From IMG/VR virus record IMGVR_UViG_3300002026_000020: a stretch of 64,000 nt of DNA, one strand, 5' to 3'. Of the stretch, positions 12,065 through 64,000 are shown piece by piece (within the stretch, counting starts at the first letter, position 1; every line of letters begins with the position of its first letter). The position numbers were made by a program, and so were the translations under genes. The notes below the pieces were generated by a model. It saw only the letters and a program-made list of their open reading frames with translations, searched no databases and was not told where the DNA came from. The stretch is from a virus.

Positions 12065-14812
12065 ATGTATTCAAGCCTATATTTTTCTCCCAAGGAATCT
12101 GAGATTTACTGCTGGGAGTATGAGAACGGAGTCAAGGTGCTAAACAAGCACCCTGCTCCTTTGTTCTTTTATGTCAAGGATACAAACAGCAAAGACACTG
12201 AATACAAGACCATATACGGCGACCCTGCTAAGAAGGTCGAAGTATCTTCGTGGAAGAAGTACAAGGATGCCATTGAGAGATACCGTGAGTGGGGCACGCA
12301 GACCTTCGAATCTGACGTAGCTGTTGAAACCAAGTTCATCATTTCCAACTACCTTGGGCTTGAGCTAACCGTTCCCAAGTTTGACATTCATTTCCTTGAC
12401 ATTGAGGTTCACTCTGACGTTGGGTTTCCTCGCCCTGAAGAAGCCAACCATCCTATAACCATCATAACTACATGGTCAACCAAACACGAAAAGTTCTTTA
12501 TCTTCTGTGAGAAGGATTTTGACGAATCGTTCATCACTAAGAACGGTGAGAAGTGCGAGAAGTTTGTATTTCCTAATGAGGAAGACCTACTTCGTGAGTA
12601 TATGGCATGGGTTCGCAACGAGCATCCCGACATTATCTCGGGTTGGAACTCAAACGGGTATGACATTCCATATATCATTAACCGGGCGAGAAAGCTATTT
12701 GGATACACTGAGAATGAGAGAGGTTACACTGAAGAAGATGGCGCAGCAGCCTTGTCACCAATCAACATCATCAGAACCCGCAAGATTCCCGTTGATGAAT
12801 TCAATTTCGACATCAAGTATGAAATAGCTGGAATCAACCTCCTTGACTACATGGAAGTATTTCAGAACTACACGTTCTCGGAACAGGAATCGTGGAAGCT
12901 TGGTCATATTGCTGGTCTTGAGTTAGGTGAAACGAAACTTGAATATGACGGCTCGTTTGCCGACCTATATAAAGATTGGCAGAAGTATGTGGAATATAAC
13001 GTGCAAGACGTTCGTCTTCTTCGTAAGTTGGATGCCAAGAAGAAGTTCCTCAAGCTTCTCATAACCTTCTGTTATGGCTGCCGTGTTCCATTCGAACACT
13101 ACGTTAAGACCACTAAGGTTCTCGACGGTGCGTTCCTGTCTAAGCTGGCTCTGGAGAAGGTTGTTCTTCCAGACGTAAACCGTAAGCTTATCGAAGAGAT
13201 GAAGATAAAGAACGAGAAGTATATTGGCGGATATGTCAAGCAGCCCGAAGCCGCTCTTCACGAGTGGACGGAATCGTTCGACGCAACCTCGCTTTATCCT
13301 TCTATCATGATGGGTTGGAATATCTCACCAGAAACAAAGATATGTGTCGTTGACAAGAAGTTTGTCAAGCCAATTGCCAAGTGTCTCGCTGGTGCTGTCG
13401 AGAATACTGATGAAATATTCATCATGAAGCAGCGTATGACCATATCAGACTTGGCTGGTCTTATAAAGGAGAAGAATTGGTGTATGGCTGCCAACGGTGC
13501 CATATACAAGACCGATGTTCAGGGTGTTATTGGGCGTTTCGTAAAGGAATGGTTCAATATGCGTAAGGCTTATAAGAAGAAGATGTTGAAAGCCAAGGAT
13601 GACCACGATGAAGTCATGGCTTCCGAATATGACGGTCTTCAGCACAACTATAAGATTCTTATCAACTCGGTTTACGGATACCTTGGAACACCACACTCTC
13701 GTCTATTCGATTGGGATAACGCAATCGCAGTAACCATGACGGGTAGAGCAATCACCACAACCTGTATTTCGGCTATCGACGGTTATTTCTCGTCGGATGC
13801 TTGGGTAAACAACACCAAGTTCCGCAATGAAGAGAAGCAGTCTAACACTCCGATTGACAACACCATCATATATGGTGACACTGACTCTCTGTATATCTCA
13901 TTCGGTAGAATCCTGAAGTCTTATGGGTTCAATTATGAGACTATGGATCCCGAAGTCGTAAAGAACTACTTGATATTCGGTGTTCAGAAGAACAATGCTG
14001 ACTTCTACGATAAGCTCTCTAAGGATGATCGTGAGAAGCTTGAGGATAGTGCCGATTCTATTCAGAACTTCGTTGCAAACATAATCAACAATGCCATGAA
14101 GTCATTGACTCTCAAACATTTCAACTGCCCCGAGAATCTTATATACTTCAAGCGTGAAGCTGTTGCATCCAGAGCAGTATTCCTTGAGGCTAAGAAGCAT
14201 TATGTAATGTGGGTTCTCAATACCGAAGGAGTTGAGTTGGAAGAAAAGAAGCGACTCAAGGTTGTCGGTATTGACATCGTGCGTTCGTCAACTCCACCAC
14301 TGGTTCGTAAGGAACTCAAGGAAGTCATCAAGAACATTCTCGTGAAGCTTGACCGTGACCATACGGTTGGTGAGTTGACGAAGATGTATGACAAGTTCCT
14401 CGCAGCCAAGCCCGAAGAAATAGCCTTCCCATCATCCGTTCGTGATATAAAGAAGTATGTTCAGAAGTTGAAGGAAGACGGTAAGTTCAAGTCAACACCG
14501 ATGCACGTTAGAGCGGCTATTCTTTACAATCAGATGCTTGAAGAGAATCCAACGCTGAAGCGCAAATATGACCTCATCCATAATGGTGAGAAGATGAAGT
14601 ATGTATATACAAAGACTTCCGATAAGTGGAAGCACAACATATTCGGATTCAAGGATGCATGGGTCAAGGAGCTTGGAGTTGAAGACAACATCAATCGTCG
14701 TGAGCAGTTCCATCGTGCCGCCATCAGTCCAGTTGAAGACTTCTTCAATATTCTCGGATGGAGTCTGCCCGACTTGGATTGCCACGATATGAAGGGCATC
14801 TTCAACTGGTAA
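12065..14812 (+). CDS. 43: Family B DNA polymerase (gp43)
   Basis: Exo DIE, GWNSNGYD, YNVQD; Pol DATSLYPS, KILINSVYG, YGDTDS. Confidence 0.97.
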   Translation: MYSSLYFSPKESEIYCWEYENGVKVLNKHPAPLFFYVKDTNSKDTEYKTIYGDPAKKVEVSSWKKYKDAIERYREWGTQTFESDVAVETKFIISNYLGLELTVPKFDIHFLDIEVHSDVGFPRPEEANHPITIITTWSTKHEKFFIFCEKDFDESFITKNGEKCEKFVFPNEEDLLREYMAWVRNEHPDIISGWNSNGYDIPYIINRARKLFGYTENERGYTEEDGAAALSPINIIRTRKIPVDEFNFDIKYEIAGINLLDYMEVFQNYTFSEQESWKLGHIAGLELGETKLEYDGSFADLYKDWQKYVEYNVQDVRLLRKLDAKKKFLKLLITFCYGCRVPFEHYVKTTKVLDGAFLSKLALEKVVLPDVNRKLIEEMKIKNEKYIGGYVKQPEAALHEWTESFDATSLYPSIMMGWNISPETKICVVDKKFVKPIAKCLAGAVENTDEIFIMKQRMTISDLAGLIKEKNWCMAANGAIYKTDVQGVIGRFVKEWFNMRKAYKKKMLKAKDDHDEVMASEYDGLQHNYKILINSVYGYLGTPHSRLFDWDNAIAVTMTGRAITTTCISAIDGYFSSDAWVNNTKFRNEEKQSNTPIDNTIIYGDTDSLYISFGRILKSYGFNYETMDPEVVKNYLIFGVQKNNADFYDKLSKDDREKLEDSADSIQNFVANIINNAMKSLTLKHFNCPENLIYFKREAVASRAVFLEAKKHYVMWVLNTEGVELEEKKRLKVVGIDIVRSSTPPLVRKELKEVIKNILVKLDRDHTVGELTKMYDKFLAAKPEEIAFPSSVRDIKKYVQKLKEDGKFKSTPMHVRAAILYNQMLEENPTLKRKYDLIHNGEKMKYVYTKTSDKWKHNIFGFKDAWVKELGVEDNINRREQFHRAAISPVEDFFNILGWSLPDLDCHDMKGIFNW

Positions 14813-54989: not shown

Positions 54990-57236
54990 ATGTCTATACG
55001 CGCCCTCATGGAATACACACGTTACGCTAAATACAGCCGTTTCGTACCGGAACTCAAAAGAAGAGAAACGTGGGACGAACAGGTTGACAGAGTATTCGAG
55101 ATGCATGAAAAGAAGTATGCGGATAAGATTGAATCCATAAGAGAAGATTTTGAGTTTGCAAAGCAGATGGTAAAGCGTAAGCGTGTTCTCGGCTCGCAGA
55201 GAGCCTTGCAGTTTGGTGGTAAGCCAATCCTTGACAAGAATGCGAAGCTCTATAACTGTACCGTAAGTTATGTTGATCGCCCTCGTTTCTTCCAAGAGTG
55301 CATGTATCTACTTCTTTGTGGTTGTGGAACCGGCTTTTCCGTCCAGACGCACCATGTAGCCAAGTTGAGCGACATTGCAACCAGAACCAAGGCTGAGAAG
55401 ACATATGTTGTTCCTGACTCCATTGAGGGCTGGGCTGACGCTATTGGTGTTCTCGTCTCTTCATACTTCACAGGCGAAGTTCCTTTCCCCGACTATCAAG
55501 GGCATAAGGTAAAGTTCGACTTCAGCAAGATTCGTCCAGCAGGCGCTCCCCTTTCATGGGGTGGCAAGGCTCCAGGCGCTAAGGGCTTGACACAATCCAT
55601 TGAGAAGATGGCAAGTGTTTTTGATGTAACCCTTGCAACCGGATCGAAGCGTCTTCGCTCCATCGACGCATACGATCTTATCATGCACGCATCCGATGCG
55701 GTGCTTAGTGGTGGTATTCGCCGCAGCGCAACCATTTGCATATTCTCGGCTAATGACACCGAAATGGTAAATGCTAAGACTGGTGACTGGTTCATCAAGA
55801 ACCCGCAGCGTGGACGCTCCAACAACTCGGCTCTGCTCATTCGTGAGAAGACTTCCCGTGAAGACTTCGAGAAGCTGATGAAGTCGGTGCGTGAATTCGG
55901 TGAGCCTGGATTTATTTGGAGTGACAACGAAGAAGCTCTGTATAATCCATGCGTAGAAATCGGCATGCGTGCCTATGACGAGAAGGGCAACTCTGGCTGG
56001 CAGTTCTGCAACCTCTGTGAAATCAACATGAAGAAGTGCAAGACGGAAGAGGAATTCCTCAATGTCTGCCGTGCAGCCGCTATTCTCGGAACCATGCAGG
56101 CTGGTTACGATAAGTTTGATTATCTTGGTCCAGTCACCGAAGCCATCGTTCGTCGTGAAGCCCTTCTCGGCTGCTCTATGACAGGCATGATGGATTCGCC
56201 AGAAATAGCTTTCGATCCAGCCATTCAGAAGAAGGGCGCAAAGCTTATTCTCAAGGTGAACGAAGAGATAGCCGCCAAGCTCGGTGTCAACAAGTGTGCA
56301 AGAGCTACCTGTGTCAAGCCTGCTGGAAGCACAAGCTGCTTGCTCGGCTCGGCAAGTGGAATCCACCCACACCACGCTCGTCGCTACTTCCGCCGTGTTC
56401 AGGCTAATGTCAATGAAACTCCACTCAAGTATTTCCAGGCTCACAATCCAAGAGCCGTTGAGAAGTCTGTGTGGAGCGCAACTGGAACTGACATGTCAAT
56501 CGTATTCCTATGCGAAGTTCCCGAAGGAGCCAAGCTCAAGAATCAGATGAACGCTGTCGAGCTTCTTGAGCATGTGCGTCTCACCCAGCAGAATTGGGTT
56601 GAGTATGGCACCCGTGATGATGCGGTAGTCGCTTCATGGCTCCGTCACAATGTTTCCAACACCATCACCGTTCGTGATGATGAATGGGATGATGTAACCA
56701 AGTTCATTTACAACAACCGCAAGTGGTTCGCAGGAATCTCCTTGCTGCCTATGTCGGGCGACTTGGATTACCCGCAGGCTCCGTTCTGCTGCGTCTTGGA
56801 GCCAAAAGAAATAATGGCTCAGTATGGCGAGGGGGCTTTGTTTGCTTCGGGGCTTATCGTTGACGGCTTGAAGGCTTTCGATGATAACCTATGGGCAGCG
56901 TGTGACTCGGCTCTCGGCATAGGTGAGAAGCTTGAGTTGACAGACGAGCAAAAGAAGCTAACCAACGGCAAGCTGAAGGCAGTTGTTGACAAGCTCACCA
57001 TCAAGGAAGATTGGGTACGCCGCTTCCAGCAGTTCGCAGATAGATACTGCGGTGGGGATAAGCGTAGATGCTCACACCTTCTCAAGCATGTCACCAACTA
57101 TAAGCTGTGGGTTGACTTGAAGCGTGAGTACCAAGAGGTTGATTGGAGTCTATGCATGGAAGATGACTTCAAGATTGATGTAACTACAATAGCTGGAGCA
57201 GCTTGCAGCGGTCCAAACGGCTGCGAGATGAAGTGA
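54990..57236 (+). CDS. nrdJ: Class II (B12-dependent) ribonucleotide reductase
   Basis: RRETW, NC, GCGTG, IRRSA, NPCVEI, CNLCE, TCVKPAGS, C-terminal CSGPNGC; no beta subunit nearby. Confidence 0.9.
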   Translation: MSIRALMEYTRYAKYSRFVPELKRRETWDEQVDRVFEMHEKKYADKIESIREDFEFAKQMVKRKRVLGSQRALQFGGKPILDKNAKLYNCTVSYVDRPRFFQECMYLLLCGCGTGFSVQTHHVAKLSDIATRTKAEKTYVVPDSIEGWADAIGVLVSSYFTGEVPFPDYQGHKVKFDFSKIRPAGAPLSWGGKAPGAKGLTQSIEKMASVFDVTLATGSKRLRSIDAYDLIMHASDAVLSGGIRRSATICIFSANDTEMVNAKTGDWFIKNPQRGRSNNSALLIREKTSREDFEKLMKSVREFGEPGFIWSDNEEALYNPCVEIGMRAYDEKGNSGWQFCNLCEINMKKCKTEEEFLNVCRAAAILGTMQAGYDKFDYLGPVTEAIVRREALLGCSMTGMMDSPEIAFDPAIQKKGAKLILKVNEEIAAKLGVNKCARATCVKPAGSTSCLLGSASGIHPHHARRYFRRVQANVNETPLKYFQAHNPRAVEKSVWSATGTDMSIVFLCEVPEGAKLKNQMNAVELLEHVRLTQQNWVEYGTRDDAVVASWLRHNVSNTITVRDDEWDDVTKFIYNNRKWFAGISLLPMSGDLDYPQAPFCCVLEPKEIMAQYGEGALFASGLIVDGLKAFDDNLWAACDSALGIGEKLELTDEQKKLTNGKLKAVVDKLTIKEDWVRRFQQFADRYCGGDKRRCSHLLKHVTNYKLWVDLKREYQEVDWSLCMEDDFKIDVTTIAGAACSGPNGCEMK

Positions 57237-57270
57237 GTGATACAGTGGGGTGGGCTACCAACTCACCCCA

Positions 57271-57348
57271 TTGACATTACTAAAAAGCTGTTATACTAAA
57301 CCTCAGAAGAAAGAAAAAGTAAGTGGTCGTGTGAACCGCTTATAAATA
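57271..57348 (+). promoter_or_regulatory. Promoters of the tRNA-array leader (TTGACA-N15-TATACT and late TATAAATA)
   Basis: TTGACA 57271-57276, TATACT 57292-57297, TATAAATA 57341-57348. Confidence 0.65.
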
Positions 57349-57372
57349 CCTATAACAAGGATTCAGATTTCA

Positions 57373-57447
57373 ATGACTACATGCACCTATAATAAGATAG
57401 CAAATAAAGGATGTGCCGAAGGTACAATCCTCGGGGGTGCGGTGTAA
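57373..57447 (+). CDS. Attenuator leader peptide MTTCTYNKIANKGCAEGTILGGAV
   Basis: AAGGA RBS at 57357-57361; 3' end overlaps the antiterminator strand; amino acids match downstream tRNAs. Confidence 0.75.
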   Translation: MTTCTYNKIANKGCAEGTILGGAV

Positions 57448-57474
57448 CAAAGGTTCTCAAACCTAAGATTCACC

Positions 57475-57509
57475 GAAACCCCTGGCTAAAACCAGGGGTT
57501 TCTTCTTTT
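57475..57509 (+). terminator. Intrinsic terminator (attenuator) before the first tRNA
   Basis: GAAACCCCTGG-CTAAAA-CCAGGGGTTTC 11-bp stem followed by TTCTTTT. Confidence 0.85.
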
Positions 57510-57569
57510 ACAACTTTATATAAGTAGTTTGATGTTTCTTCTTTTACAACTTTATATAAGTAGTTTGAT
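57498..57569 (+). repeat. Perfect 36-bp tandem duplication
   Basis: gtttcttcttttacaactttatataagtagtttgat x2. Confidence 0.9.
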
Positions 57570-57572
57570 TAT

Positions 57573-57646
57573 GCCGGTGTCGTATAACGGAAATACGAAA
57601 CATTGCCAATGTTTAGATAGGGTTTCGACTACCCTCACTGGCTCCA
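57573..57646 (+). tRNA. tRNA-Gly(GCC)
   Basis: AAACA-TTGCCAA-TGTTT; encoded CCA, U73. Confidence 0.85.
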
Positions 57647-57649
57647 TAT

Positions 57650-57725
57650 GTTCCTATCGTCTAACGGTTTAGGACAGTAGACCCTCAATCTACTAATAGC
57701 GGTTCGAATCCGCTTAGGAACACCA
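57650..57725 (+). tRNA. tRNA-Glu(CTC)
   Basis: GTAGA-CCCTCAA-TCTAC (C33 atypical); GTTCGAAT; CCA. Confidence 0.85.
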
Positions 57726-57906
57726 AACGGTGACTCACACACCATAAACGCTAAGGCGAAGTGAGGGATTGAAAGATAGAAAATGGGATTATACTTATCC
57801 CTGTCAGCAACGATGAGCGAGCCATAAGACTCCGTGAAAGACACGGCAGGCAGACCTAAGTAGTAGTTGACACGATTGACAACTTTATATAAGTAGCTTG
57901 AATTAT

Positions 57907-57992
57907 GGGTGGTTCGGGTAGCGGCAATCTCAAAGCACTGTAAATGCTTCGCTCAAAAGGCTTCGCTGGTTCGAGTCCAGCACCACCCACCA
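57907..57992 (+). tRNA. tRNA-Tyr(GTA)
   Basis: AAGCA-CTGTAAA-TGCTT, long V-arm, CCA. Confidence 0.9.
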
Positions 57993-58028
57993 ATTATGGT
58001 TCCGTCAGTAATGACATAAAACTCACGA

Positions 58029-58114
58029 ACGAGGATAGGTCGCTCTTATCAGATTCGGGAGGAATCCTTCGACGAGGATAGGTCGCTCTTATCAGATTCG
58101 GGAGGAATCCTTCG
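58029..58114 (+). repeat. Perfect 43-bp tandem duplication inside a CCA-ended RNA-like element
   Basis: acgaggataggtcgctcttatcagattcgggaggaatccttcg x2. Confidence 0.9.
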
Positions 58115-58186
58115 CCTAAAGCGGAGGGGAATCGCCATGCGTAGGTTTGTAGGCACGCTTCCAATAAAGAAAGCAACCTTCACCAT

Positions 58187-58277
58187 GCGTCCGTGCGTTG
58201 AGTGGCTGAAAACCTCCGACTCTTAATCGGAATGAGTTTATCTCACATCGTAGGTTCGAATCCTACCGGACGCACCA
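58187..58277 (+). tRNA. tRNA-Lys(CTT) with long variable arm
   Basis: TCCGA-CTCTTAA-TCGGA; V-arm TGAG-TTTAT-CTCA; CCA. Confidence 0.85.
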
Positions 58278-58314
58278 TCAAAGGTTTTTCAAGTTTACCT
58301 ATAAACTTGTGCAT

Positions 58315-58405
58315 GCATCCGTGCGTTGAGTGGCTGAAAACCCCCGCCTTTTAAGCGGACGAGACTTGTTCTCCATCGTAGGTTCGAATCCTACCGGATG
58401 CACCA
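58315..58405 (+). tRNA. tRNA-Lys(TTT) with long variable arm
   Basis: CCGC-CTTTTAA-GCGG; paralog of the preceding tRNA; CCA. Confidence 0.85.
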
Positions 58406-58641
58406 GACGCAGTTGACGGTACAACAAGAGGAAATAAACCGTATTGGCATTTCACTGGCTTCGGTCTGCCCAGCGGAGTGTCACGCTACCATAGGTAGAA
58501 ACTAATAAAGACCGATAGGTAAGGATGTAGTCAGCATAGACTACTGCGAAAGCGGTTCATCCGATGCCGAAATTTCATGCTGATAAGGTGCTGCAAGCGT
58601 TCGTCCTTTGCGCCAGCATACCCGACAATAAAGGACTTTAT

Positions 58642-58733
58642 GGGAACAGGACAGTAAGGAATCCACGGGGATTCACCGGATTGTAAACCCGGACCCTTCG
58701 GGGCACAAGGTTCGACTCCTTCCGTTCCCACCA
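58642..58733 (+). tRNA. Atypical tRNA-Tyr(GTA)
   Basis: TTGTAAA loop, V-arm CCC-TTCG-GGG, extra nt between acceptor and D-stem. Confidence 0.65.
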
Positions 58734-58734
58734 A

Positions 58735-58820
58735 AATGCGTGTCTCGTACATCAGAGGGTTTCTGGTGGGTGTCTGCAAAACACATAGAGTTTGGGGTTC
58801 GACTCCCCCACGCATTTCCA
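58735..58820 (+). tRNA. Atypical tRNA-Cys(GCA)
   Basis: TGT-CTGCAAA-ACA; AATGCGTG/CACGCATT acceptor; U73-CCA; 7-bp D-stem. Confidence 0.65.
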
Positions 58821-58823
58821 TAT

Positions 58824-58897
58824 GCCTGCGTAGTATAGTGTTATTACAACGCCTTTGTATCGCGAAAACGGGGGTTAGATTCCCTCCGTAGGCTCCA
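58824..58897 (+). tRNA. tRNA-Thr(TGT), weak anticodon stem
   Basis: GCCTGCG/CGTAGGC acceptor; loop TTTGTAT; CCA. Confidence 0.6.
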
Positions 58898-58951
58898 AAT
58901 ATTTCTGTCTCCCAACCACTTGTTAGTATAAATACTGGTAGGGAGATACAT

Positions 58952-59371
58952 ATGACTACATGCTTACATTGTGGAAAAGAACTTGTAATACATAAAGACA
59001 AAAATAAAAAGTTTTGTAACAATAAATGTCAGCAAGATTATCAATATGAACAAAAAGTAAAGTTATGGAAAGATGGAAGGCTAAAGGAAACCAGCGGTGA
59101 TTATCAAATAGCAAGAACTATTCGCCGGTATCTTTTTGAAAAACATGGTAATAAATGTTGTGAATGTGGTTGGGATAAAATAAACCCGATAACTGGTAAA
59201 TGCCCGTTAGAAGTTGAACATATAGATGGAAACCATGAAAATAATAAAGAAGAAAACTTAACTCTTCTTTGTCCAAATTGTCATTCATTGACTCCTACCT
59301 ATAAAGCATTGAATAGAGGAAAGGGTAGAAATCAAAGGATGAAAAGGTATAAAGAAGGAAAAACATTTTAG
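58952..59371 (+). CDS. HNH homing endonuclease in tRNA array
   Basis: CLHCG, KFCNNKC, CCECG, LEVEHIDGN..N..NL..LCPNCH. Confidence 0.88.
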   Translation: MTTCLHCGKELVIHKDKNKKFCNNKCQQDYQYEQKVKLWKDGRLKETSGDYQIARTIRRYLFEKHGNKCCECGWDKINPITGKCPLEVEHIDGNHENNKEENLTLLCPNCHSLTPTYKALNRGKGRNQRMKRYKEGKTF

Positions 59372-59374
59372 AAT

Positions 59375-59472
59375 GCTGCTTTAGCTCAGTTGGTAGAGCA
59401 ATAGTTTTGGTTGACTGAAATCAACTTCCAGTAAACTATAGGTCGTCTGTTCAAGTCAGACAAGCAGCACCA
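59375..59472 (+). tRNA. tRNA-Thr (TGT after removal of a 22-nt insertion in the anticodon loop)
   Basis: Perfect acceptor, D and T arms; ATAGT/ACTAT stem encloses 29 nt rather than 7. Confidence 0.75.
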
Positions 59473-59573
59473 GTGTCTCTTTGTTTCTCACCTTGCATAC
59501 AGGAGCATCCCTCAAGATGACTCAAACATGGTGTTGTTTCCTTTCGACATTATCAAAGAAAAGAAACAGGTAT

Positions 59574-59649
59574 AGGCGGTTAGTATACTAGGTGTTTACA
59601 TTCGTCTGTTAAACGAAAGAAGGTGGTTCGAATCCACCGCTGCCTGCCA
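59574..59649 (+). tRNA. tRNA-Asn(GTT)
   Basis: TTCGT-CTGTTAA-ACGAA; G73-CCA. Confidence 0.85.
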
Positions 59650-59654
59650 AGCAT

Positions 59655-59743
59655 TGAAGAGTACCCGAGTGGTAGCAGGGGTCTGACTGTTAATCAGAAA
59701 GCAGAAATGCTCGCCGTAGGTTCGAATCCTACCTCTTCAGCCA
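59655..59743 (+). tRNA. tRNA-Asn(GTT) with long variable arm
   Basis: TCTGA-CTGTTAA-TCAGA; V-arm AGCA-GAAA-TGCT; G73-CCA. Confidence 0.85.
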
Positions 59744-59993
59744 AAACAAAGCTGGATAAACAATCCGCCCTGCCAACCTTCACCTGTCCTCGTAGGGGAT
59801 AGTAAACTTCTCTCCAGCATCCGAAAGGATTTGAGGGGTTAGTAAAGGTAAAAGACCTTCCGTAGTAGCCGAGCGTGTCGGCGGCGGAGCACCATTTCAA
59901 CGGATACGATGAATCCGACAGCCGCAATGGGCTGTGAAAATTAGTTGCTGGGTATAGAAGTATCTACTCAGCGGCAACCAACGAGCCATCACC

Positions 59994-60050
59994 GAGAACT
60001 TTAGCTGAGAGGCAAAGCGTTTCACTCATAAAAAGAAACCAGCTTCACCA
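59994..60050 (+). pseudogene. tRNA remnant (CAT anticodon) lacking T-arm
   Basis: TAGCTGAGAGGCAAAGC D-arm, CTCATAA loop, ends ACCA, no T-arm. Confidence 0.45.
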
Positions 60051-60110
60051 TTTTTGGATTACTGTGATATAATGGGTATAAATACTTTGTAGCAAAGGAG
60101 ATTTACCCAC

Positions 60111-60644
60111 ATGACAGAAAATCATAGAAAGCTAGTTGAAGCAAATTGTATTCATTGTAATAAAATAATACTAACCAGACCGGATAGAGTAAAAAAGTTT
60201 TGCTCAAAACTATGTAAAAAAATACATAGAAATGTTGAAGTGAAATGCACCAATTGTGGTAAATTAACTCTAAAGAAAAAATCGGCTCTTGCCAATTCAA
60301 AACATGAAATATATTTTTGTAGTAGAGAGTGTAAAGATTTCGCTCAAAGTATCAAGGGTGGTTGTGAGATAATAAGACCTTCTCACTATGGAAATGGTGG
60401 TTTACATTTTTACAAAAGCCTAATAAATAAAACTGACAATCCTAAATGTTGCGATTGTGGTGAAACAAAAAGATATACATTATGTGTTCATCATATAGAT
60501 AGTGATCGTGAAAATAATTCAGTAGATAATTTAGAAATAGTTTGTGCAAATTGTCACATGAAAAGACATCTAAAACTTATAGATGGTGAGTGGCAATATG
60601 GCGCAAAGTATCTTACACCAAGAGAAGATTTAAAAATCATATAA
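60111..60644 (+). CDS. HNH homing endonuclease in tRNA array
   Basis: Repeated CxxC/FCS motifs; VHHIDSDRENN..NLEIVCANCH. Confidence 0.88.
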   Translation: MTENHRKLVEANCIHCNKIILTRPDRVKKFCSKLCKKIHRNVEVKCTNCGKLTLKKKSALANSKHEIYFCSRECKDFAQSIKGGCEIIRPSHYGNGGLHFYKSLINKTDNPKCCDCGETKRYTLCVHHIDSDRENNSVDNLEIVCANCHMKRHLKLIDGEWQYGAKYLTPREDLKII

Positions 60645-60645
60645 T

Positions 60646-60721
60646 GGGGGCACATGTACCTCGCAGGCGAACCGCACTTGCAATGCAGTTGTGATGGGTT
60701 GAATCCCCATTGTCTCCACCA
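60646..60721 (+). tRNA. tRNA-Ala(TGC), atypical D-arm
   Basis: G3-U70, GCA-CTTGCAA-TGC, A73-CCA. Confidence 0.75.
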
Positions 60722-60722
60722 T

Positions 60723-61037
60723 TTTTCAGTAGAAGCAAATCGTAAGGTACGGCATACATAAACAAATAAGGGTATGCTGGGAGCGGCGACACCAAGCCAG
60801 GGTCTATGCAATAGGCAACACTACATTCAATATAGTAGTTGTGTAAATAAAAACACTAAAGTCACTTTACGGTGGGAAGCCTTAGTGGGTGTGGAGAAAA
60901 TCTCCTTTATTGAGCCTAAAAACTCTAAGCCCTATGGTTGTACTTTGTCGTGACGAGGGTAATCCCATAGGGGAATATCCCAAGTTTAGGCTTCGAACAG
61001 CGGTGTCCACGCGACCAACCCGGCTGACTGAAAACCA
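60723..61037 (+). ncRNA. ~315-nt structured RNA, possibly RNase P RNA-like
   Basis: TTTTCAGT/ACTGAAAA closing stem + CCA; AGCC(A)GGGT/ACCCGGCT long-range helix. Confidence 0.45.
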
Positions 61038-61252
61038 TTTAGGTGTGTAGTATGTGTCGTATAAATGTGTTTGGCGATGCTCAGTCGTTTCATCCTGCTT
61101 GTTTGGATGGGCGGCACCACAATGGACACAGCGATGTAAACCAAACACTGCGCCAGTAAGTACGCAGGGCTACCAGCCCTCGAAGAGTAGAGTATGTGCG
61201 CCTCTATCGCTTACGCTTCGGGGTTTGTTCCCGAAAGTCACACCCAAACCCA
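61038..61252 (+). ncRNA. Unknown structured RNA, copy A
   Basis: Closing stem TTTAGGTGTG/CACACCCAAA; motifs shared with copy B. Confidence 0.65.
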
Positions 61253-61464
61253 TTTTTGTTTACCATGTGTGTCGTATAATGTTCTGTGCGAAGTCCGGCG
61301 AAATGACCATCACGGCTCCTGTGAGTCGATAAAGGGTGGTCATCTACCCTCAAAATGTAATAAAGACACAGTAAGCATAGAACAGCGCAGCCAGTACAGC
61401 GGTACTTTTAATTCCGTAGGAGTAGAGTATGTGCGCCTCTATCACAAGGCATGGTAAACAAAAA
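61253..61464 (+). ncRNA. Unknown structured RNA, copy B
   Basis: 15-bp closing stem TTTTTGTTTACCATG/CATGGTAAACAAAAA; motifs shared with copy A. Confidence 0.65.
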
Positions 61465-61471
61465 CATTCAT

Positions 61472-61603
61472 GTGGTGGTCGTAATAATGAAACGAAGTAA
61501 AGACTGTTATCTAAGTAAGTCTTGAAGAAACCGTTTCGTGGAAGTTACAATACGCGGCAATGCAATCGCTGAGATGCTGGTTCGAGTCCAGCCCACCACT
61601 CCA
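61472..61603 (+). tRNA. tRNA-Cys(GCA)-like with ~55-60-nt hairpin insertion in the D-arm
   Basis: GTGGTGG/CCACCAC acceptor, U73-CCA, perfect T-arm, loop ATGCAAT. Confidence 0.6.
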
Positions 61604-61742
61604 TTACAGTGTATCACACGCCTGTCAACTTGACTGGCATGGTGGGAAAAATAAGTATTGATAAATAAAAATACCCTCTACAATAGAGGCATGAGCAACG
61701 AAAGAAGCTCGGTTGACAAATATATATGAGTAGCTTGAATAT

Positions 61743-61817
61743 GGGTTGCAAGCATTAGGGCTGATGCAATGGTCTTTTAAACCATGGAAGTAGGATCGAC
61801 CCCTACGCGACTCACCA
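61743..61817 (+). tRNA. tRNA-Lys(TTT)
   Basis: ATGGT-CTTTTAA-ACCAT; CCA. Confidence 0.82.
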
Positions 61818-61922
61818 TAAGAGATTACAGGACAACTCTCTATAAACACTGTACCATTTAGCGAATACAGAAATCAGTTTCGGGTACTAGACATAAATCC
61901 GTCAACAAAAACAACCAATCAC

Positions 61923-61999
61923 GCGCCTAGTGTTCGCCGGTTGTGGACGGTGGTCTTATAAACCATTCTGAGGGTGTTCAACTCACCATAGGCGTACCA
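61923..61999 (+). tRNA. tRNA-Ile(TAT)
   Basis: GTGGT-CTTATAA-ACCAT; A73-CCA. Confidence 0.78.
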
Positions 62000-62147
62000 T
62001 TTTGTAATCGTTGAAGAAGAGGATAGCGCAACTCATAGAACCTTCGGGGGAGAGTTGCCGTATCAATGCGATTCCTTCATTCAACCGTGTTCTCCAGCGG
62101 AACCCGATAACATTGATACGAGTTGCATCTGGATATACAACTCACAT

Positions 62148-62225
62148 GCACCCATCGTCTAACCCGGCTCAGGACAGGAGACTTTCATTCTCCCGATTGG
62201 GGTTCAAATCCCCATGGGTGTACCA
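62148..62225 (+). tRNA. tRNA-Glu(TTC)
   Basis: GGAGA-CTTTCAT-TCTCC; CCA. Confidence 0.88.
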
Positions 62226-62284
62226 TATGACGAAGTTTGTTGGTTTGATACTCAGAGCTAATTAGATAGCGAAACCAACATCAT

Positions 62285-62359
62285 GCTCTATTAGAACAGT
62301 GGCTAGTTCATTCGGCTTTCAACCGAAAGAAGAGGGATCGAAACCCTTATAGAGTACCA
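62285..62359 (+). tRNA. tRNA-Glu(TTC), second unrelated copy
   Basis: TTCGG-CTTTCAA-CCGAA; CCA. Confidence 0.85.
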
Positions 62360-62402
62360 AGTGTAAACGCATAAACCCTATCTGGCGGTAGGTGGCACGC
62401 AT

Positions 62403-62477
62403 CGCGGGGTGGAGAAGTGGTAACTCGCTTGGCTCATAACCAAGAGAACGCAGGTTCAAATCCTGCCCCCGCAACCA
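62403..62477 (+). tRNA. Initiator tRNA-fMet(CAT)
   Basis: CGCGGGG 5' end with C1:A72 mismatch; CTCATAA loop. Confidence 0.88.
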
Positions 62478-62506
62478 TACAAGTCGAGACACATGTCTCG
62501 CAAATT

Positions 62507-62580
62507 TGCGCGGTGGTGTAACGGTAGCATAATAGCCTCATAAGCTTTTGATCAGGGTTCAAATCCTTGCTGCGCTCCCA
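62507..62580 (+). tRNA. tRNA-Met(CAT), initiator-like 1:72 mismatch
   Basis: AGC-CTCATAA-GCT; T1:T72; CCA. Confidence 0.72.
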
Positions 62581-62803
62581 TTGAGTCTTCTTTCATAACG
62601 AGGGTAGTAGTCTCGTTGTAGTTTCTTTGACTGAAAAAGAAACGCTATACTAACATCTGGTGCCGGGAAAGTGAATGTGGCGTGAGCCAACCTTTGCCGA
62701 GATTCACCACCTTTTATCCCTCCAGCCTCTTCACAATGCAGAAACGGAGACTTGAAAAAACAAGTATCGCTCATAGGGAACGATGAGTGTGGGAGCCTTT
62801 TAT

Positions 62804-62879
62804 GCGTCAATAGCTCAGTTGGTAGAGCGGAACTTTTCCAAAGTTCGGGTCGCAGGTTCAAATCCTGTTTGACGCTCCA
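62804..62879 (+). tRNA. tRNA-Gly(TCC)
   Basis: GAACT-TTTCCAA-AGTTC; U73-CCA. Confidence 0.9.
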
Positions 62880-62938
62880 TTTAAAATAGTTCAATAGTCA
62901 AGTATCGAACTAATATAAATATATGGTATAATATATTT

Positions 62939-63589
62939 ATGTTCTATACCATCTACAAGATAACAAACCGAGTAAACAACAAGATTTATGTCGGCAAACA
63001 TCAAACCGAAACCCTTGACGATTGTTATATGGGTTCTGGAACTCTTTTACTTAGAGCGATAGAGAAGTATGGTATTGATAAGTTTGATAAAGAAATACTA
63101 TATGTATTTGACAATGAAGAACAAATGAATAATATGGAAAAAGAAATTGTCAACGAAGAGTTTTTACTAAGGGAAGATGTTTATAACTTGAAGGTTGGTG
63201 GTGACGGTGGGTTTGGATATATAAACTCAAAAGATACCACCGAGACTACGAAAAAAGGGAGAATAGAATGTGATAAAATAATGTTGAGTAAGTATGGAGA
63301 TGATTGGAGACAAATCTTAGGGAAAAAAGCTGGCAATGCTTCGTGGGATAAACGAAAAAAGACTGGCAATATCCTTATAGGAAATCCATACTCATTCTTA
63401 GGTAAAAGACACACTGATGGAGCTAAAAAAATAATAGGGCAAAAAAATTCTATACATCAATCCGGAAATAAAAATTCTATGTACGGAATGATGTGGATTT
63501 ATAATTTAGAAACTTTAGAAAGTAAAAGGATTGGTAATAGAGAAGAAATACCTATTGGTTGGGTTAAAGGAAGAAAAATAAAAAAATAA
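62939..63589 (+). CDS. GIY-YIG (Seg-like) homing endonuclease
   Basis: TIYKITN..KIYVGKH..YMGSG..YNLKVGG, NUMOD-like tail. Confidence 0.9.
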   Translation: MFYTIYKITNRVNNKIYVGKHQTETLDDCYMGSGTLLLRAIEKYGIDKFDKEILYVFDNEEQMNNMEKEIVNEEFLLREDVYNLKVGGDGGFGYINSKDTTETTKKGRIECDKIMLSKYGDDWRQILGKKAGNASWDKRKKTGNILIGNPYSFLGKRHTDGAKKIIGQKNSIHQSGNKNSMYGMMWIYNLETLESKRIGNREEIPIGWVKGRKIKK

Positions 63590-63592
63590 GAT

Positions 63593-63668
63593 GCAGCAGT
63601 AACTCAGAGGCTAGAGTGCGACTTTTCCAAAGTCGATGTCGAGATTTCGAAATTCTCCTGCTGCACCA
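63593..63668 (+). tRNA. tRNA-Gly(TCC), A73 variant
   Basis: CGACT-TTTCCAA-AGTCG; CCA. Confidence 0.85.
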
Positions 63669-63799
63669 GTTTCGGTTGAATATGTGGATGGGTGCCACCC
63701 TAAAAAGTCGCTTTCAACCAACCCCCTAGAAATAGGAAGTATTCACATTATTCATTGTGCTATTAGGTTCTCTTTATCCTAAGAAACAAAAAAGAATAT

Positions 63800-63875
63800 G
63801 TAGAGCAGTAGCATTAAGTAATGCACCCGTTGTTTATACGGGACTAAGTTGGTTCAATCCCAACCCTCTGCACCA
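63800..63875 (+). tRNA. Atypical tRNA, probable Lys(TTT)
   Basis: CCCGT-TGTTTAT-ACGGG (G33), 2-nt bulge in acceptor, CCA. Confidence 0.55.
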
Positions 63876-64000
63876 GCCAGCCCCTTGAAAAAGGGCTACT
63901 TGTGATACTACAAGGAACAGTAAGGGGATTCTGCACAGGGTTATGAGGTATCGCCAGCACCTATAGCTGGTACGAGCCGAGTAATGTTCTGTGAGTGAAA

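What the first reader, a model, noticed from the sequence alone, without database searches (positions are those of the whole stretch)
57271..57569. Leader-peptide attenuator whose codons match the downstream tRNA cargo: candidate phage sensor of tRNA depletion
Seen: two promoters (57271, 57341), an RBS and a 24-codon ORF (57373-57447: ATG ACT ACA TGC ACC TAT AAT AAG ATA GCA AAT AAA GGA TGT GCC GAA GGT ACA ATC CTC GGG GGT GCG GTG TAA), then an 11-bp intrinsic terminator (57475-57509) just before the first tRNA. The ORF's last codons (CGGGGGTGCGGTG, 57432-57444) pair with the terminator's 5' arm (CACCGAAACCCCTG, 57471-57484) as an antiterminator. They can alternatively pair upstream (CCGAAGG 57416-57422; GCACCT 57383-57388), giving 1:2/2:3/3:4 alternatives. 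The first 19 codons use exactly ten amino acids (M,T,C,Y,N,K,I,A,G,E), and the 22 tRNAs visible downstream belong to exactly those ten isotypes. The match extends to codons: ATA-Ile(UAU), AAG/AAA-both Lys, GGA-Gly(UCC), GGT-Gly(GCC), ACA-Thr(UGU), GCA-Ala(UGC), GAA-Glu(UUC). Leu and Val occur only in the structure-constrained tail. Established: trp/his/thr attenuators work through ribosome stalling, and host anticodon nucleases (e.g. PrrC) destroy tRNAs during infection. Inference: loss of any of ten tRNAs stalls the ribosome and frees the antiterminator, so the phage transcribes replacement tRNAs on demand, a multi-input OR-gate counter-defence. I know of no description of this for phage tRNA arrays.
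Basis: partly seen in the sequence, partly recalled or inferred. Interest (0 to 1): 0.95.

Follow-up and report, generated by a model that had tools for sequence, protein, structure and literature searches.

The report
Leader-peptide attenuator gating phage tRNA genes
In an uncultured T4-like giant phage, each block of tRNA genes sits behind a tiny test gene written in the codons those tRNAs read, plus a switchable transcription stop, so the phage probably makes these tRNAs mainly when ribosomes decode those codons slowly; I found no description of this trp-operon-style control for tRNA genes.

Summary
Window 57271-57509 carries a sigma-70-like promoter, a T4-type late promoter (TATAAATA), an SD, a 24-codon ORF and an 11-bp intrinsic terminator, directly before a tRNA array. 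A 97%-related contig (L013/L053) has a paralogous promoter-ORF-terminator module 9 kb further on. Its 33-codon ORF contains all ten predicted amino acids and samples 10 of 10 visible downstream anticodons. The same design recurs in a 79% relative (L001: 16 of 18 anticodons) and twice in a 60% relative (8 of 8; 23 of 25). Against random windows of phage genes, P ranges from below 5e-5 to 0.007 per module; the combined isotype-level P is about 1e-9. Leaders do not match the other array of the same genome. In four of five modules the last ORF codons pair with that module's own terminator 5' arm better than random segments do. In all five, folding predicts this antiterminator survives a ribosome stalled in the leader body and is lost with a ribosome at the stop. 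Best reading: a ribosome-mediated attenuator sensing decoding speed. Expression, and the counter-defence motive, are untested. A promoter-like motif downstream of the terminator is a caveat. This scan noted the same design in other phages; I found no published description.

The parts
57271..57297 (+). Sigma-70-like promoter: -35 TTGACA (57271-57276) and extended -10 TGnTATACT (57289-57297), 15-nt spacer.
   Evidence: Sequence. It is conserved in L012 and L013. A paralogous copy precedes leader 2 in L013. The consensus scan did not list it because the spacer is 15 nt.
57341..57348 (+). TATAAATA, the T4-type late-promoter consensus, ending 24 nt before the leader ATG.
   Evidence: The motif occurs 20 times in the window against 4.3 expected. 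It lies at the same distance before other ORFs, and also before leaders B and C (CATAAATA before E).
57357..57361 (+). Shine-Dalgarno AAGGA.
   Evidence: Duplex with the anti-SD is -5.2 kcal/mol. The window's gene median is -6.1 and random positions give -1.85.
57373..57447 (+). Leader ORF, 24 codons. Codons 2-16 form the sensor zone. Codons 20-24 are the antiterminator strand.
   Evidence: Of the 23 codons after the start, 15 are read by the array tRNAs (17 if the Cys-like gene is counted), and 10 of the 12 anticodons seen in the window are sampled. At isotype level 15 of 15 sensor codons are in the set.
57383..57388 (+). Region 1 (GCACCT), which pairs with 57434-57439 in the full-length MFE.
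   Evidence: The helix is weak and is absent from the MFE of the nascent RNA.
57432..57444 (+). Region 2: the last ORF codons, forming the 5' strand of the antiterminator.
   Evidence: It pairs with 57471-57485 in nascent-RNA folds. The duplex energy is -13.6 kcal/mol, P = 0.001 against random 27-mers.
57451..57464 (+). Small spacer hairpin between the stop codon and the terminator, nested inside the antiterminator.
   Evidence: An equivalent small hairpin is predicted in all five modules.
57475..57509 (+). Intrinsic terminator: arms 57475-57485 and 57492-57502, loop 57486-57491, T-rich tail to 57509. The 5' arm plus 57471-57474 is region 3.
   Evidence: It is present in every full-length MFE.
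57507..57569 (+). Promoter-like 27-nt motif (TTKACA ... TATA ... GTAG ... TAT) in two tandem copies, the second abutting tRNA-Gly position +1. Function unexplained.
   Evidence: Further copies abut tRNA-Tyr (57876-57902) and tRNA-Lys (61712-61742), also in L012 and L013. Contigs from three public runs carry only one copy.
57573..63877 (+). tRNA sub-array 1 (the part inside the window): Gly, Glu, Tyr, Lys, Thr, Asn, Ala, Ile, Met and a Cys-like gene, interspersed with HNH and GIY-YIG endonuclease genes.

Best explanation
This is a ribosome-mediated (leader-peptide) transcription attenuator placed in front of a block of phage tRNA genes. Transcription starts at an early sigma-70-type promoter, a T4-type late promoter, or both. 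The 24-codon leader is translated while RNA polymerase moves on. If the ribosome runs through to the stop codon, it covers the last codons (57432-57444). The terminator hairpin (57475-57502) then forms and transcription stops before the tRNAs. If the ribosome is delayed at any codon of the sensor zone (codons 2 to about 16), the uncovered ORF tail pairs with the terminator's 5' arm and polymerase reads through into the array. The sensor zone holds roughly one codon for each tRNA species of the array. Its transit time therefore reports the supply of exactly those charged tRNAs. Shortage switches the array on and sufficiency switches it off, which is negative feedback. A second paralogous module gates the next tRNA block with a leader written in the complementary codon set. 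What is shown: the parts, their conservation, the codon-to-tRNA correspondence and the alternative pairings. What is inferred: translation of the ORF, the direction of the switch and the physiological trigger.
For: The parts are present. Leader-to-array correspondence under strict wobble, tested against 20,000-50,000 equal-length windows from the phage's own long ORFs, was as follows. Module A (window): 15 of 23 codons and 10 of 12 anticodons, P = 0.007. Module B (L053): 10 of 10 anticodons, P = 0.001. Module C (L001): 29 of 37 codons and 16 of 18 anticodons, P < 5e-5. Module D: 8 of 8 anticodons, with three Leu and three Ser tRNAs each matched by its own codon class, P < 5e-5. Module E: 23 of 25 anticodons, P = 5e-4. 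At isotype level the Fisher-combined P is 1.4e-9. Specificity holds within one genome: leader A reads 17 of 23 codons with array A but 4 of 23 with array B, and leader B samples 4 of 16 anticodons of array A but 10 of 10 of array B. The leader A against array D comparison gives 0 of 23. For the antiterminator, the tail-by-arm duplexes are -13.6, -16.1, -12.8 and -11.9 kcal/mol for A to D (P = 0.005 or less against random 27-mers). Modules C and D use different sequences that fit only their own partner, which is compensatory change. With a simulated footprint, the antiterminator persists for stalls at codons 2-16 (A), 2-25 (B), 2-32 (C), 2-15 (D) and 2-34 (E), and vanishes with the ribosome at the last codons or the stop. 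The mismatching Leu, Val and Ile-AUC codons of leader A lie in the structural tail. The stop-to-terminator gap is 23-31 nt in all modules, too far for a ribosome to block the hairpin directly. A late promoter and a gene-like SD sit at gene-like distances. The only amino-acid changes among the three close variants (T2I, A10E) stay inside the isotype set.
Against: There are no RNA or ribosome data. No RNA run holds this DNA, which says nothing about expression either way. SDs are weak or absent in modules B, D and E. The region 1:2 helix is weak, and the untranslated nascent RNA is also predicted to form the antiterminator. The off state therefore depends wholly on efficient translation, and the trp-like 'superattenuation' feature is not evident. 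Each tRNA is represented by only one or two codons, so sensitivity to moderate shortage is uncertain. In relatives, Arg-UCU and Arg-CCU tRNAs sit in sub-array 1 although leader 1 has no Arg codon. ACU, ACC and GCC in leader 1 have no strictly cognate canonical tRNA in the array. A conserved promoter-like motif lies between the terminator and the first tRNA and again before two inner tRNAs, so part of the array may be expressed independently. The sub-array is over 7 kb long and holds endonuclease genes with their own late promoters. Relatives at 64% RNR identity have no such module. Module E's antiterminator is weak (P = 0.1).
Confidence: 0.78

Rival explanations
1. The attenuator is real but is a minor or time-limited input. 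The tRNAs are mainly transcribed from the conserved promoter-like element that follows each terminator and abuts tRNA-Gly, tRNA-Tyr and tRNA-Lys. The leader-terminator module chiefly insulates the array from upstream transcription.
For: The 27-31-nt motif has a perfect or near-perfect TTGACA. It recurs at the same three tRNAs in the window, L012 and L013, and after the terminators of modules A, B and C. A TTGACA also follows terminator D.
Against: The geometry does not fit a sigma-70 promoter. The only -10-like hexamer at a 17-18-nt spacing ends at tRNA position -1, which would put the start site inside the tRNA. A pure insulator gives no reason for leader ORFs to sample each downstream anticodon or to carry a strand complementary to the terminator arm. 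Module E has no such motif.
Confidence: 0.15
2. The short ORFs encode functional micro-proteins, or are translated for another purpose, and the hairpin is an ordinary constitutive terminator. The resemblance between ORF composition and array content is indirect, for example shared codon bias.
For: Small phage genes are common. The ORFs have late promoters like ordinary genes.
Against: Random windows of the phage's own genes almost never reach the observed sampling. Two leaders in one genome match opposite arrays. The peptide sequences are not conserved between modules beyond the first residues, whereas the architecture is. A constitutive 11-12-bp terminator directly between a promoter and its only downstream genes would make that promoter pointless.
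Confidence: 0.04
3. The logic is inverted, as feed-forward control: completed translation favours read-through and stalling favours termination, so tRNAs are made only while translation runs well.
For: The direction of the switch has not been measured. The untranslated RNA is predicted to be in the antiterminated state.
Against: In all five modules a ribosome at the stop codon covers the antiterminator strand and leaves the terminator arms free. A ribosome stalled upstream leaves the antiterminator intact. This is the trp/his geometry.
Confidence: 0.03

Closest known systems
Multivalent leader-peptide attenuators of enterobacterial amino-acid operons (ilvGMEDA leader: Leu/Val/Ile; thr leader: Thr/Ile; also trpL, hisL, leuL, pheL). 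From textbook knowledge, not tested here.
   Same: Both have a promoter, a short translated ORF rich in regulatory codons, an intrinsic terminator, and an alternative helix between the ORF's end and the terminator's 5' arm. In both, ribosome position selects the fold, and several amino acids are sensed by one leader.
   Different: The regulated genes here are tRNA genes, not biosynthetic enzymes, so the product acts directly on the sensed step. The leader holds about one codon per tRNA species (up to 23 of 25 anticodons) rather than runs of one codon. Matching is at the level of anticodon, not amino acid. No convincing 1:2 anti-antiterminator was found. The element is phage-borne and driven by a T4-type late promoter.
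The pheST attenuator (pheM leader) of E. coli, a leader-peptide attenuator of an aminoacyl-tRNA synthetase operon. From own knowledge.
   Same: Attenuation by a leader peptide controls a component of the translation apparatus rather than a biosynthetic pathway.
   Different: It senses a single amino acid (Phe), regulates a protein-coding operon, and is cellular.
T-box riboswitches of Gram-positive bacteria.
   Same: Both are terminator/antiterminator switches that report tRNA status and control genes of the translation supply chain.
   Different: A T-box binds uncharged tRNA directly through a specifier codon and needs no ribosome. No T-box or other cis-regulatory Rfam family matched here. Here an ORF is the sensor.
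tRNA blocks of Caulobacter phage phiCbK (JX100813).
   Same: Annotated terminators lie directly before tRNA blocks. The ORF ending before the third terminator samples all 7 anticodons of the Phe-Val-Ile-Ile-Val-Gln-Gln-Gly block. gp083, before the second terminator, is rich in Ser, Leu, Pro and Lys, matching the Pro-Pro-Lys-Lys-Leu-Leu-Leu-Ser-Ser block.
   Different: phiCbK is an unrelated GC-rich siphovirus, and its modules share no sequence with these. I made only a brief check, with no statistics or folding, and found no paper describing it.

Membership tests
Leader-peptide (ribosome-mediated) transcription attenuators | A short ORF with start codon and ribosome-binding site in the 5' leader of the regulated transcript. 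| tested here: met
   The ORF is at 57373-57447. Its SD energy is -5.2 kcal/mol, in the range of the phage's genes. A late promoter ends 24 nt upstream. SDs are weak or absent in modules B, D and E.
Leader-peptide (ribosome-mediated) transcription attenuators | Regulatory codons in the ORF correspond to the product being regulated. | tested here: met
   Leaders sample 10 of 12 (A), 10 of 10 (B), 16 of 18 (C), 8 of 8 (D) and 23 of 25 (E) downstream anticodons. P ranges from 0.007 to below 5e-5. They do not match the other array of the same genome.
Leader-peptide (ribosome-mediated) transcription attenuators | An intrinsic terminator lies between the ORF and the regulated genes. | tested here: met
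   An 11-bp G+C-rich stem plus T tract lies at 57475-57509, and equivalents occur in all modules.
Leader-peptide (ribosome-mediated) transcription attenuators | A mutually exclusive antiterminator involves the ORF's 3' part and the terminator's 5' arm, and is selected by ribosome position. | tested here: met
   This is met by prediction only. Duplexes for A to D are significant against random segments, and the C and D pairs are specific to their own partner. Footprint-constrained folds switch as expected.
Leader-peptide (ribosome-mediated) transcription attenuators | A 1:2 (anti-antiterminator or pause) hairpin keeps the untranslated leader terminated. | tested here: inconclusive
   A 6-bp 1:2 helix appears in the full-length MFE of module A. 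In the nascent-RNA MFE of all five modules, however, the antiterminator forms without a ribosome.
Leader-peptide (ribosome-mediated) transcription attenuators | Read-through rises in vivo when the cognate charged tRNA is limiting and depends on leader translation. | not testable with these tools
   No RNA run holds this DNA and the phage is uncultured.
T-box riboswitch | Match to the T-box covariance model (specifier loop, T-box sequence). | tested here: not met
   Rfam found no such hit at the gathering threshold or at E up to 1 in 57000-64000.
T4-type late promoter | TATAAATA lies a short distance upstream of a gene start in a T4-superfamily genome. | tested here: met
   There is an exact match at 57341-57348. 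The motif is enriched 20 to 4.3. It also precedes leaders B and C at a gene-like distance. The DNA polymerase is of T4 type (phrog_262). I did not look for the gp55-like sigma factor.

The most novel reading that the evidence does not exclude
Roster-type leader attenuators may be a general solution for demand-driven tRNA supply in large phages, possibly evolved more than once. They are seen here in T4-superfamily jumbo phages and, on a brief check, in the unrelated phiCbK. Each tRNA block would be gated by a mini-ORF holding one codon per tRNA species. Its total decoding time is raced against RNA polymerase. The phage then tops up exactly the tRNAs that are limiting, whether through codon-usage mismatch, late-gene demand, phage-induced host tRNA loss or host anticodon nucleases, and shuts the block off once they suffice. 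This would be the first case of tRNA genes regulated by translation-sensing attenuation, and of a leader that reads out a whole tRNA set at anticodon resolution.
Probability: 0.6. Interest if true: 0.92.

Novelty: new variant of a known kind. Interest (0 to 1): 0.87.

Why it matters
How phage tRNA genes are regulated, and why phages carry particular sets of them, are open questions. This finding offers a concrete, testable circuit. The tRNA products feed back on their own transcription through the decoding speed of a roster ORF. That would be a new target class for leader-peptide attenuation, namely RNA genes of the translation apparatus. It would also be a sensor with anticodon-level resolution for up to 25 inputs. 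The leader sequence works as an annotation key, because it predicts which tRNAs lie downstream and helps assign odd tRNA-like genes such as the Cys-like one. The circuit gives a way to test whether phage tRNAs serve codon-usage needs or counter tRNA-targeting host defences. It could also be reused as a compact synthetic sensor of tRNA availability.

Tried and rejected
- No whole genome is held for the window, so the DNA beyond 64000 was read only in the 97% relatives L012, L013 and L053, not in the same genome.
- Megablast against cultured phages found nothing. An exact 45-mer of the leader is not in IMG/VR.
- No RNA holder is listed for this DNA. The reads laid were assembled contigs only. 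They showed no leader variants and only that the 36-nt tandem copy of the post-terminator motif is absent from three runs.
- Relatives at 58-70% RNR identity mostly have no tRNAs near RNR. The 64% group (L015) has an array with a plain promoter and no leader or terminator.
- I tried reading the post-terminator motif as a sigma-70, MotA-type or late promoter. None fits the spacing to tRNA position +1, so it is left unexplained.
- The hairpin and promoter-like site at window 62595-62656, with the ORF at 62675-62755, was considered as a third module. I rejected it: no terminator follows the ORF and there is no match to the Gly tRNAs.
- In module E, an overlapping 16-codon ORF (L048 reverse complement, 425-475) is also fully decodable by the array. 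I preferred the 38-codon ORF because it ends 31 nt before the terminator, but I could not exclude the other.
- ARAGORN at relaxed settings calls 58735-58820 Thr-GGU, whereas the fold shows a canonical 7-nt loop with GCA. I kept it as uncertain.
- Seven literature searches found no description.

Full report
**The locus.** The window comes from an uncultured phage found in microbial-mat metagenomes. It has a T4-type replication module: the DNA polymerase matches phrog_262 and is about 30% identical to cyanomyovirus gp43, and there are a DnaB-like helicase and an SbcC-like nuclease. GC content is about 0.42. No cultured phage matched the tested stretch (56500-58500) at DNA level. Relatives are 214-236 kb long. 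A class II ribonucleotide reductase gene ends at 57236. The finding lies in the 337 nt between it and the first tRNA gene at 57573.

**Checking the observation.**
- The 24-codon ORF is at 57373-57447.
- The terminator at 57475-57502 has 11 pairs, 7 of them G-C, a 6-nt loop and a T-rich tail. It is the strongest terminator-like site in the 7.5 kb scanned.
- TTGACA at 57271 has an extended -10 after a 15-nt spacer.
The motif occurs 20 times in the window against 4.3 expected (0 of 100 shuffles reach 20). It typically ends 15-26 nt before an ORF start; for the leader it ends 24 nt before the ATG.
- The SD duplex energy (-5.2 kcal/mol) is in the range of the phage's genes (median -6.1; random positions -1.85).
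- ARAGORN and Rfam find 17 canonical tRNAs in eight isotypes. Relaxed settings and folds add Ala-UGC, another Lys-UUU, a Tyr-like gene and a tRNA-like gene whose 7-nt loop reads CU-GCA-AA (Cys) but whose D arm is replaced by a long hairpin.

Codons 2-19 use only these ten amino acids (binomial P = 1.8e-5 given the phage's amino-acid usage).

**What lies beyond the window.** No genome is held, but two metagenome contigs with 97% identical RNR (L012, L013) carry the same leader with two amino-acid changes. Both changes stay inside the isotype set: T2I, and A10E encoded as GAA or GAG, where Glu-UUC and Glu-CUC tRNAs both exist. In these contigs sub-array 1 continues with Arg-UCU, Asn, Arg-CCU, Met, Ala and Thr-CGU. 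Arg is the one isotype of this block that leader 1 does not contain.

Two protein genes follow, and then a second module. Its promoter is visibly paralogous to the first and contains TATAAATA. It has a 33-codon ORF (L013:12424-12525), a 12-bp terminator (12552-12581) and the same post-terminator motif.

The rest of that contig (L053) shows ten tRNAs behind it: four Ser (GCU, GGA, UGA, CGA), two Val (GAC, UAC), Thr-GGU, Arg-UCU, Ile-GAU and Asp-GUC. The leader has a cognate codon for every one. The four Ser codons AGC, UCC, UCA and UCG each occur once. Sampling of 10 of 10 anticodons has P = 0.001 against random windows of phage genes. Within this one genome, leader A reads 17 of 23 codons with array A but 4 of 23 with array B. 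Leader B samples 4 of 16 anticodons of array A but 10 of 10 of array B. General codon bias cannot produce that pattern.

**More distant relatives.**
- L001 (IMG/VR contig of 214 kb, RNR 79%) has a sigma-70 promoter, TATAAATA, an SD, a 38-codon ORF (L001:14407-14523), a 9-bp terminator at 14550-14573 and a similar post-terminator motif before an array of at least 18 tRNAs. Of its 37 codons, 29 are read by that array and 16 of 18 anticodons are sampled. All three Leu tRNAs have cognate codons, and Lys is written only as AAG where the array has only Lys-CUU. P is below 5e-5.
- A complete 236-kb genome at 60% RNR identity (G004) has two modules. Module D is a 21-codon ORF whose core is made of Leu, Ser, Trp and His codons. 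It stands before a block of exactly Leu-UAA, His, Leu-CAA, Ser-GGA, Leu-UAG, Ser-UGA, Ser-GCU and Trp: 8 of 8 sampled, one codon class per tRNA, P below 5e-5. Module E is a 38-codon ORF sampling 23 of 25 anticodons of a 29-gene block that lacks precisely Ser, His and Trp (P = 5e-4).
- Isotype-level tests restricted to the predicted sensor zones give a Fisher-combined P of 1.4e-9.
- Relatives at 64% identity have an array with a plain promoter and no module, so the device is not universal.

**Structure.**
- In every module the ORF ends 23-31 nt before the terminator, and a small hairpin fills the gap.
- The last ORF codons are complementary to that module's own terminator 5' arm. Duplex energies are -13.6, -16.1, -12.8, -11.9 and -7.1 kcal/mol for A to E. 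P against random 27-mers of the same DNA is 0.001, 0.001, below 0.0003, 0.005 and 0.1.
- Modules C and D use unrelated sequences that fit only their own partner, which amounts to compensatory change.
- I folded the nascent RNA before the 3' arm is made, with a 28-nt footprint placed at each A-site codon. The antiterminator persists for stalls at codons 2-16 (A), 2-25 (B), 2-32 (C), 2-15 (D) and 2-34 (E). It disappears when the ribosome sits on the last codons or the stop.
- The full-length MFE always contains the terminator.
- The untranslated nascent RNA is also predicted to be antiterminated, and the 1:2 helix is weak. The trp-style default-off state is therefore not evident.

**Mechanism.** The best reading is a classical ribosome-mediated attenuator whose regulated product is the set of tRNAs that decode its own sensor codons. 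With only one or two codons per tRNA, I think it acts less as a strict OR gate than as a race: the summed decoding time of the roster against the time RNA polymerase needs to reach the terminator (inference). The late promoter suggests the circuit works when structural genes load the ribosomes. Demand-supply feedback explains the same data.

**Caveats.** A conserved promoter-like motif lies between each terminator and its first tRNA and abuts two inner tRNAs. Its spacing fits no promoter class I know, and it may drive attenuator-independent expression or be a processing signal. Other caveats are the missing Arg codon, weak SDs in three modules, and the complete lack of expression data.

**Comparison and novelty.** The architecture meets the sequence-level criteria of leader-peptide attenuators. 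The closest are the multivalent ilv and thr leaders and the pheST leader (my knowledge). It is not a T-box. It differs in three ways: the target is tRNA genes, the roster has anticodon resolution, and it is phage-borne with a late promoter. Seven full-text searches found no description. Earlier AI notes of this scan report the same design in other phages. Following that lead, I checked phiCbK briefly and saw annotated terminators before its tRNA blocks. One upstream ORF samples all 7 anticodons of its block, and gp083 is enriched in the four isotypes of its block. That gives a cultured system for the decisive experiments. I rate the finding a new variant of a known kind, of high interest, with the function still inferred.

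Noticed in passing
window 58187-58277, 58315-58405, 59655-59743: tRNA-Lys(CUU), tRNA-Lys(UUU) and one tRNA-Asn(GUU) are 89-91 nt long. Each has a hairpin in the variable region (type II-like) and they share an identical T arm. The Lys genes of L012 and L013 are ordinary 75-nt tRNAs. This could reflect anticodon switching on a long-arm scaffold.
   Followed up: partly
window 58640-58733 and 58735-58821: Two tRNA-like genes have an acceptor stem, a T arm and CCA, but a long hairpin in place of the D arm. Their anticodon loops read GUA (Tyr-like) and GCA (Cys-like). They are conserved in L012 and L013 and score below the Rfam tRNA threshold.
   Followed up: partly
window 59375-59472: This tRNA scores 61 bits in Rfam. 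ARAGORN reads it either with a 4-base anticodon or, with introns allowed, as Thr(UGU) carrying a 22-nt intron.
   Followed up: no
window 58952-59371, 60111-60644, 62939-63589: Two HNH-type genes and one GIY-YIG-type homing-endonuclease-like gene are interspersed among the tRNAs (weak Pfam matches, below the curated cut-offs). Each is preceded by TATAAATA 17-26 nt before its ATG. The positions of such inserts differ between the window, L012 and L013.
   Followed up: partly
window 57497-57534: The 36-nt tandem duplication of the post-terminator motif is absent from contigs of three public microbial-mat runs and from L012 and L013. It is either a strain variant or an assembly artefact.
   Followed up: yes
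window 57876-57902 and 61712-61742; L013 3834, 6678; L012 3264, 6981: A conserved motif of about 30 nt (TTGACA, then a TATA-rich stretch, then GTAGCTTGA-TAT) ends exactly at position -1 of tRNA-Tyr and of one tRNA-Lys. Its function is unknown: promoter, processing signal or cassette junction.
   Followed up: partly
L001 16870-16942: A tRNA with anticodon CUA (an amber suppressor, labelled Pyl by ARAGORN) sits in the array of the 79% relative. That module's leader ORF stops at UAA.
   Followed up: no
window 58017-58110 and about 61040-61460: Direct repeats lie between tRNA genes: a unit of about 47 nt occurs twice, and two copies of a longer unit contain 'gtgtcgtataa'. They are possibly further structured RNAs and were not analysed.
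   Followed up: no
L001 18925-19052: There is a weak Y RNA-like (YrlA) match of 35 bits, below the gathering score of 69, inside the tRNA array.
   Followed up: no
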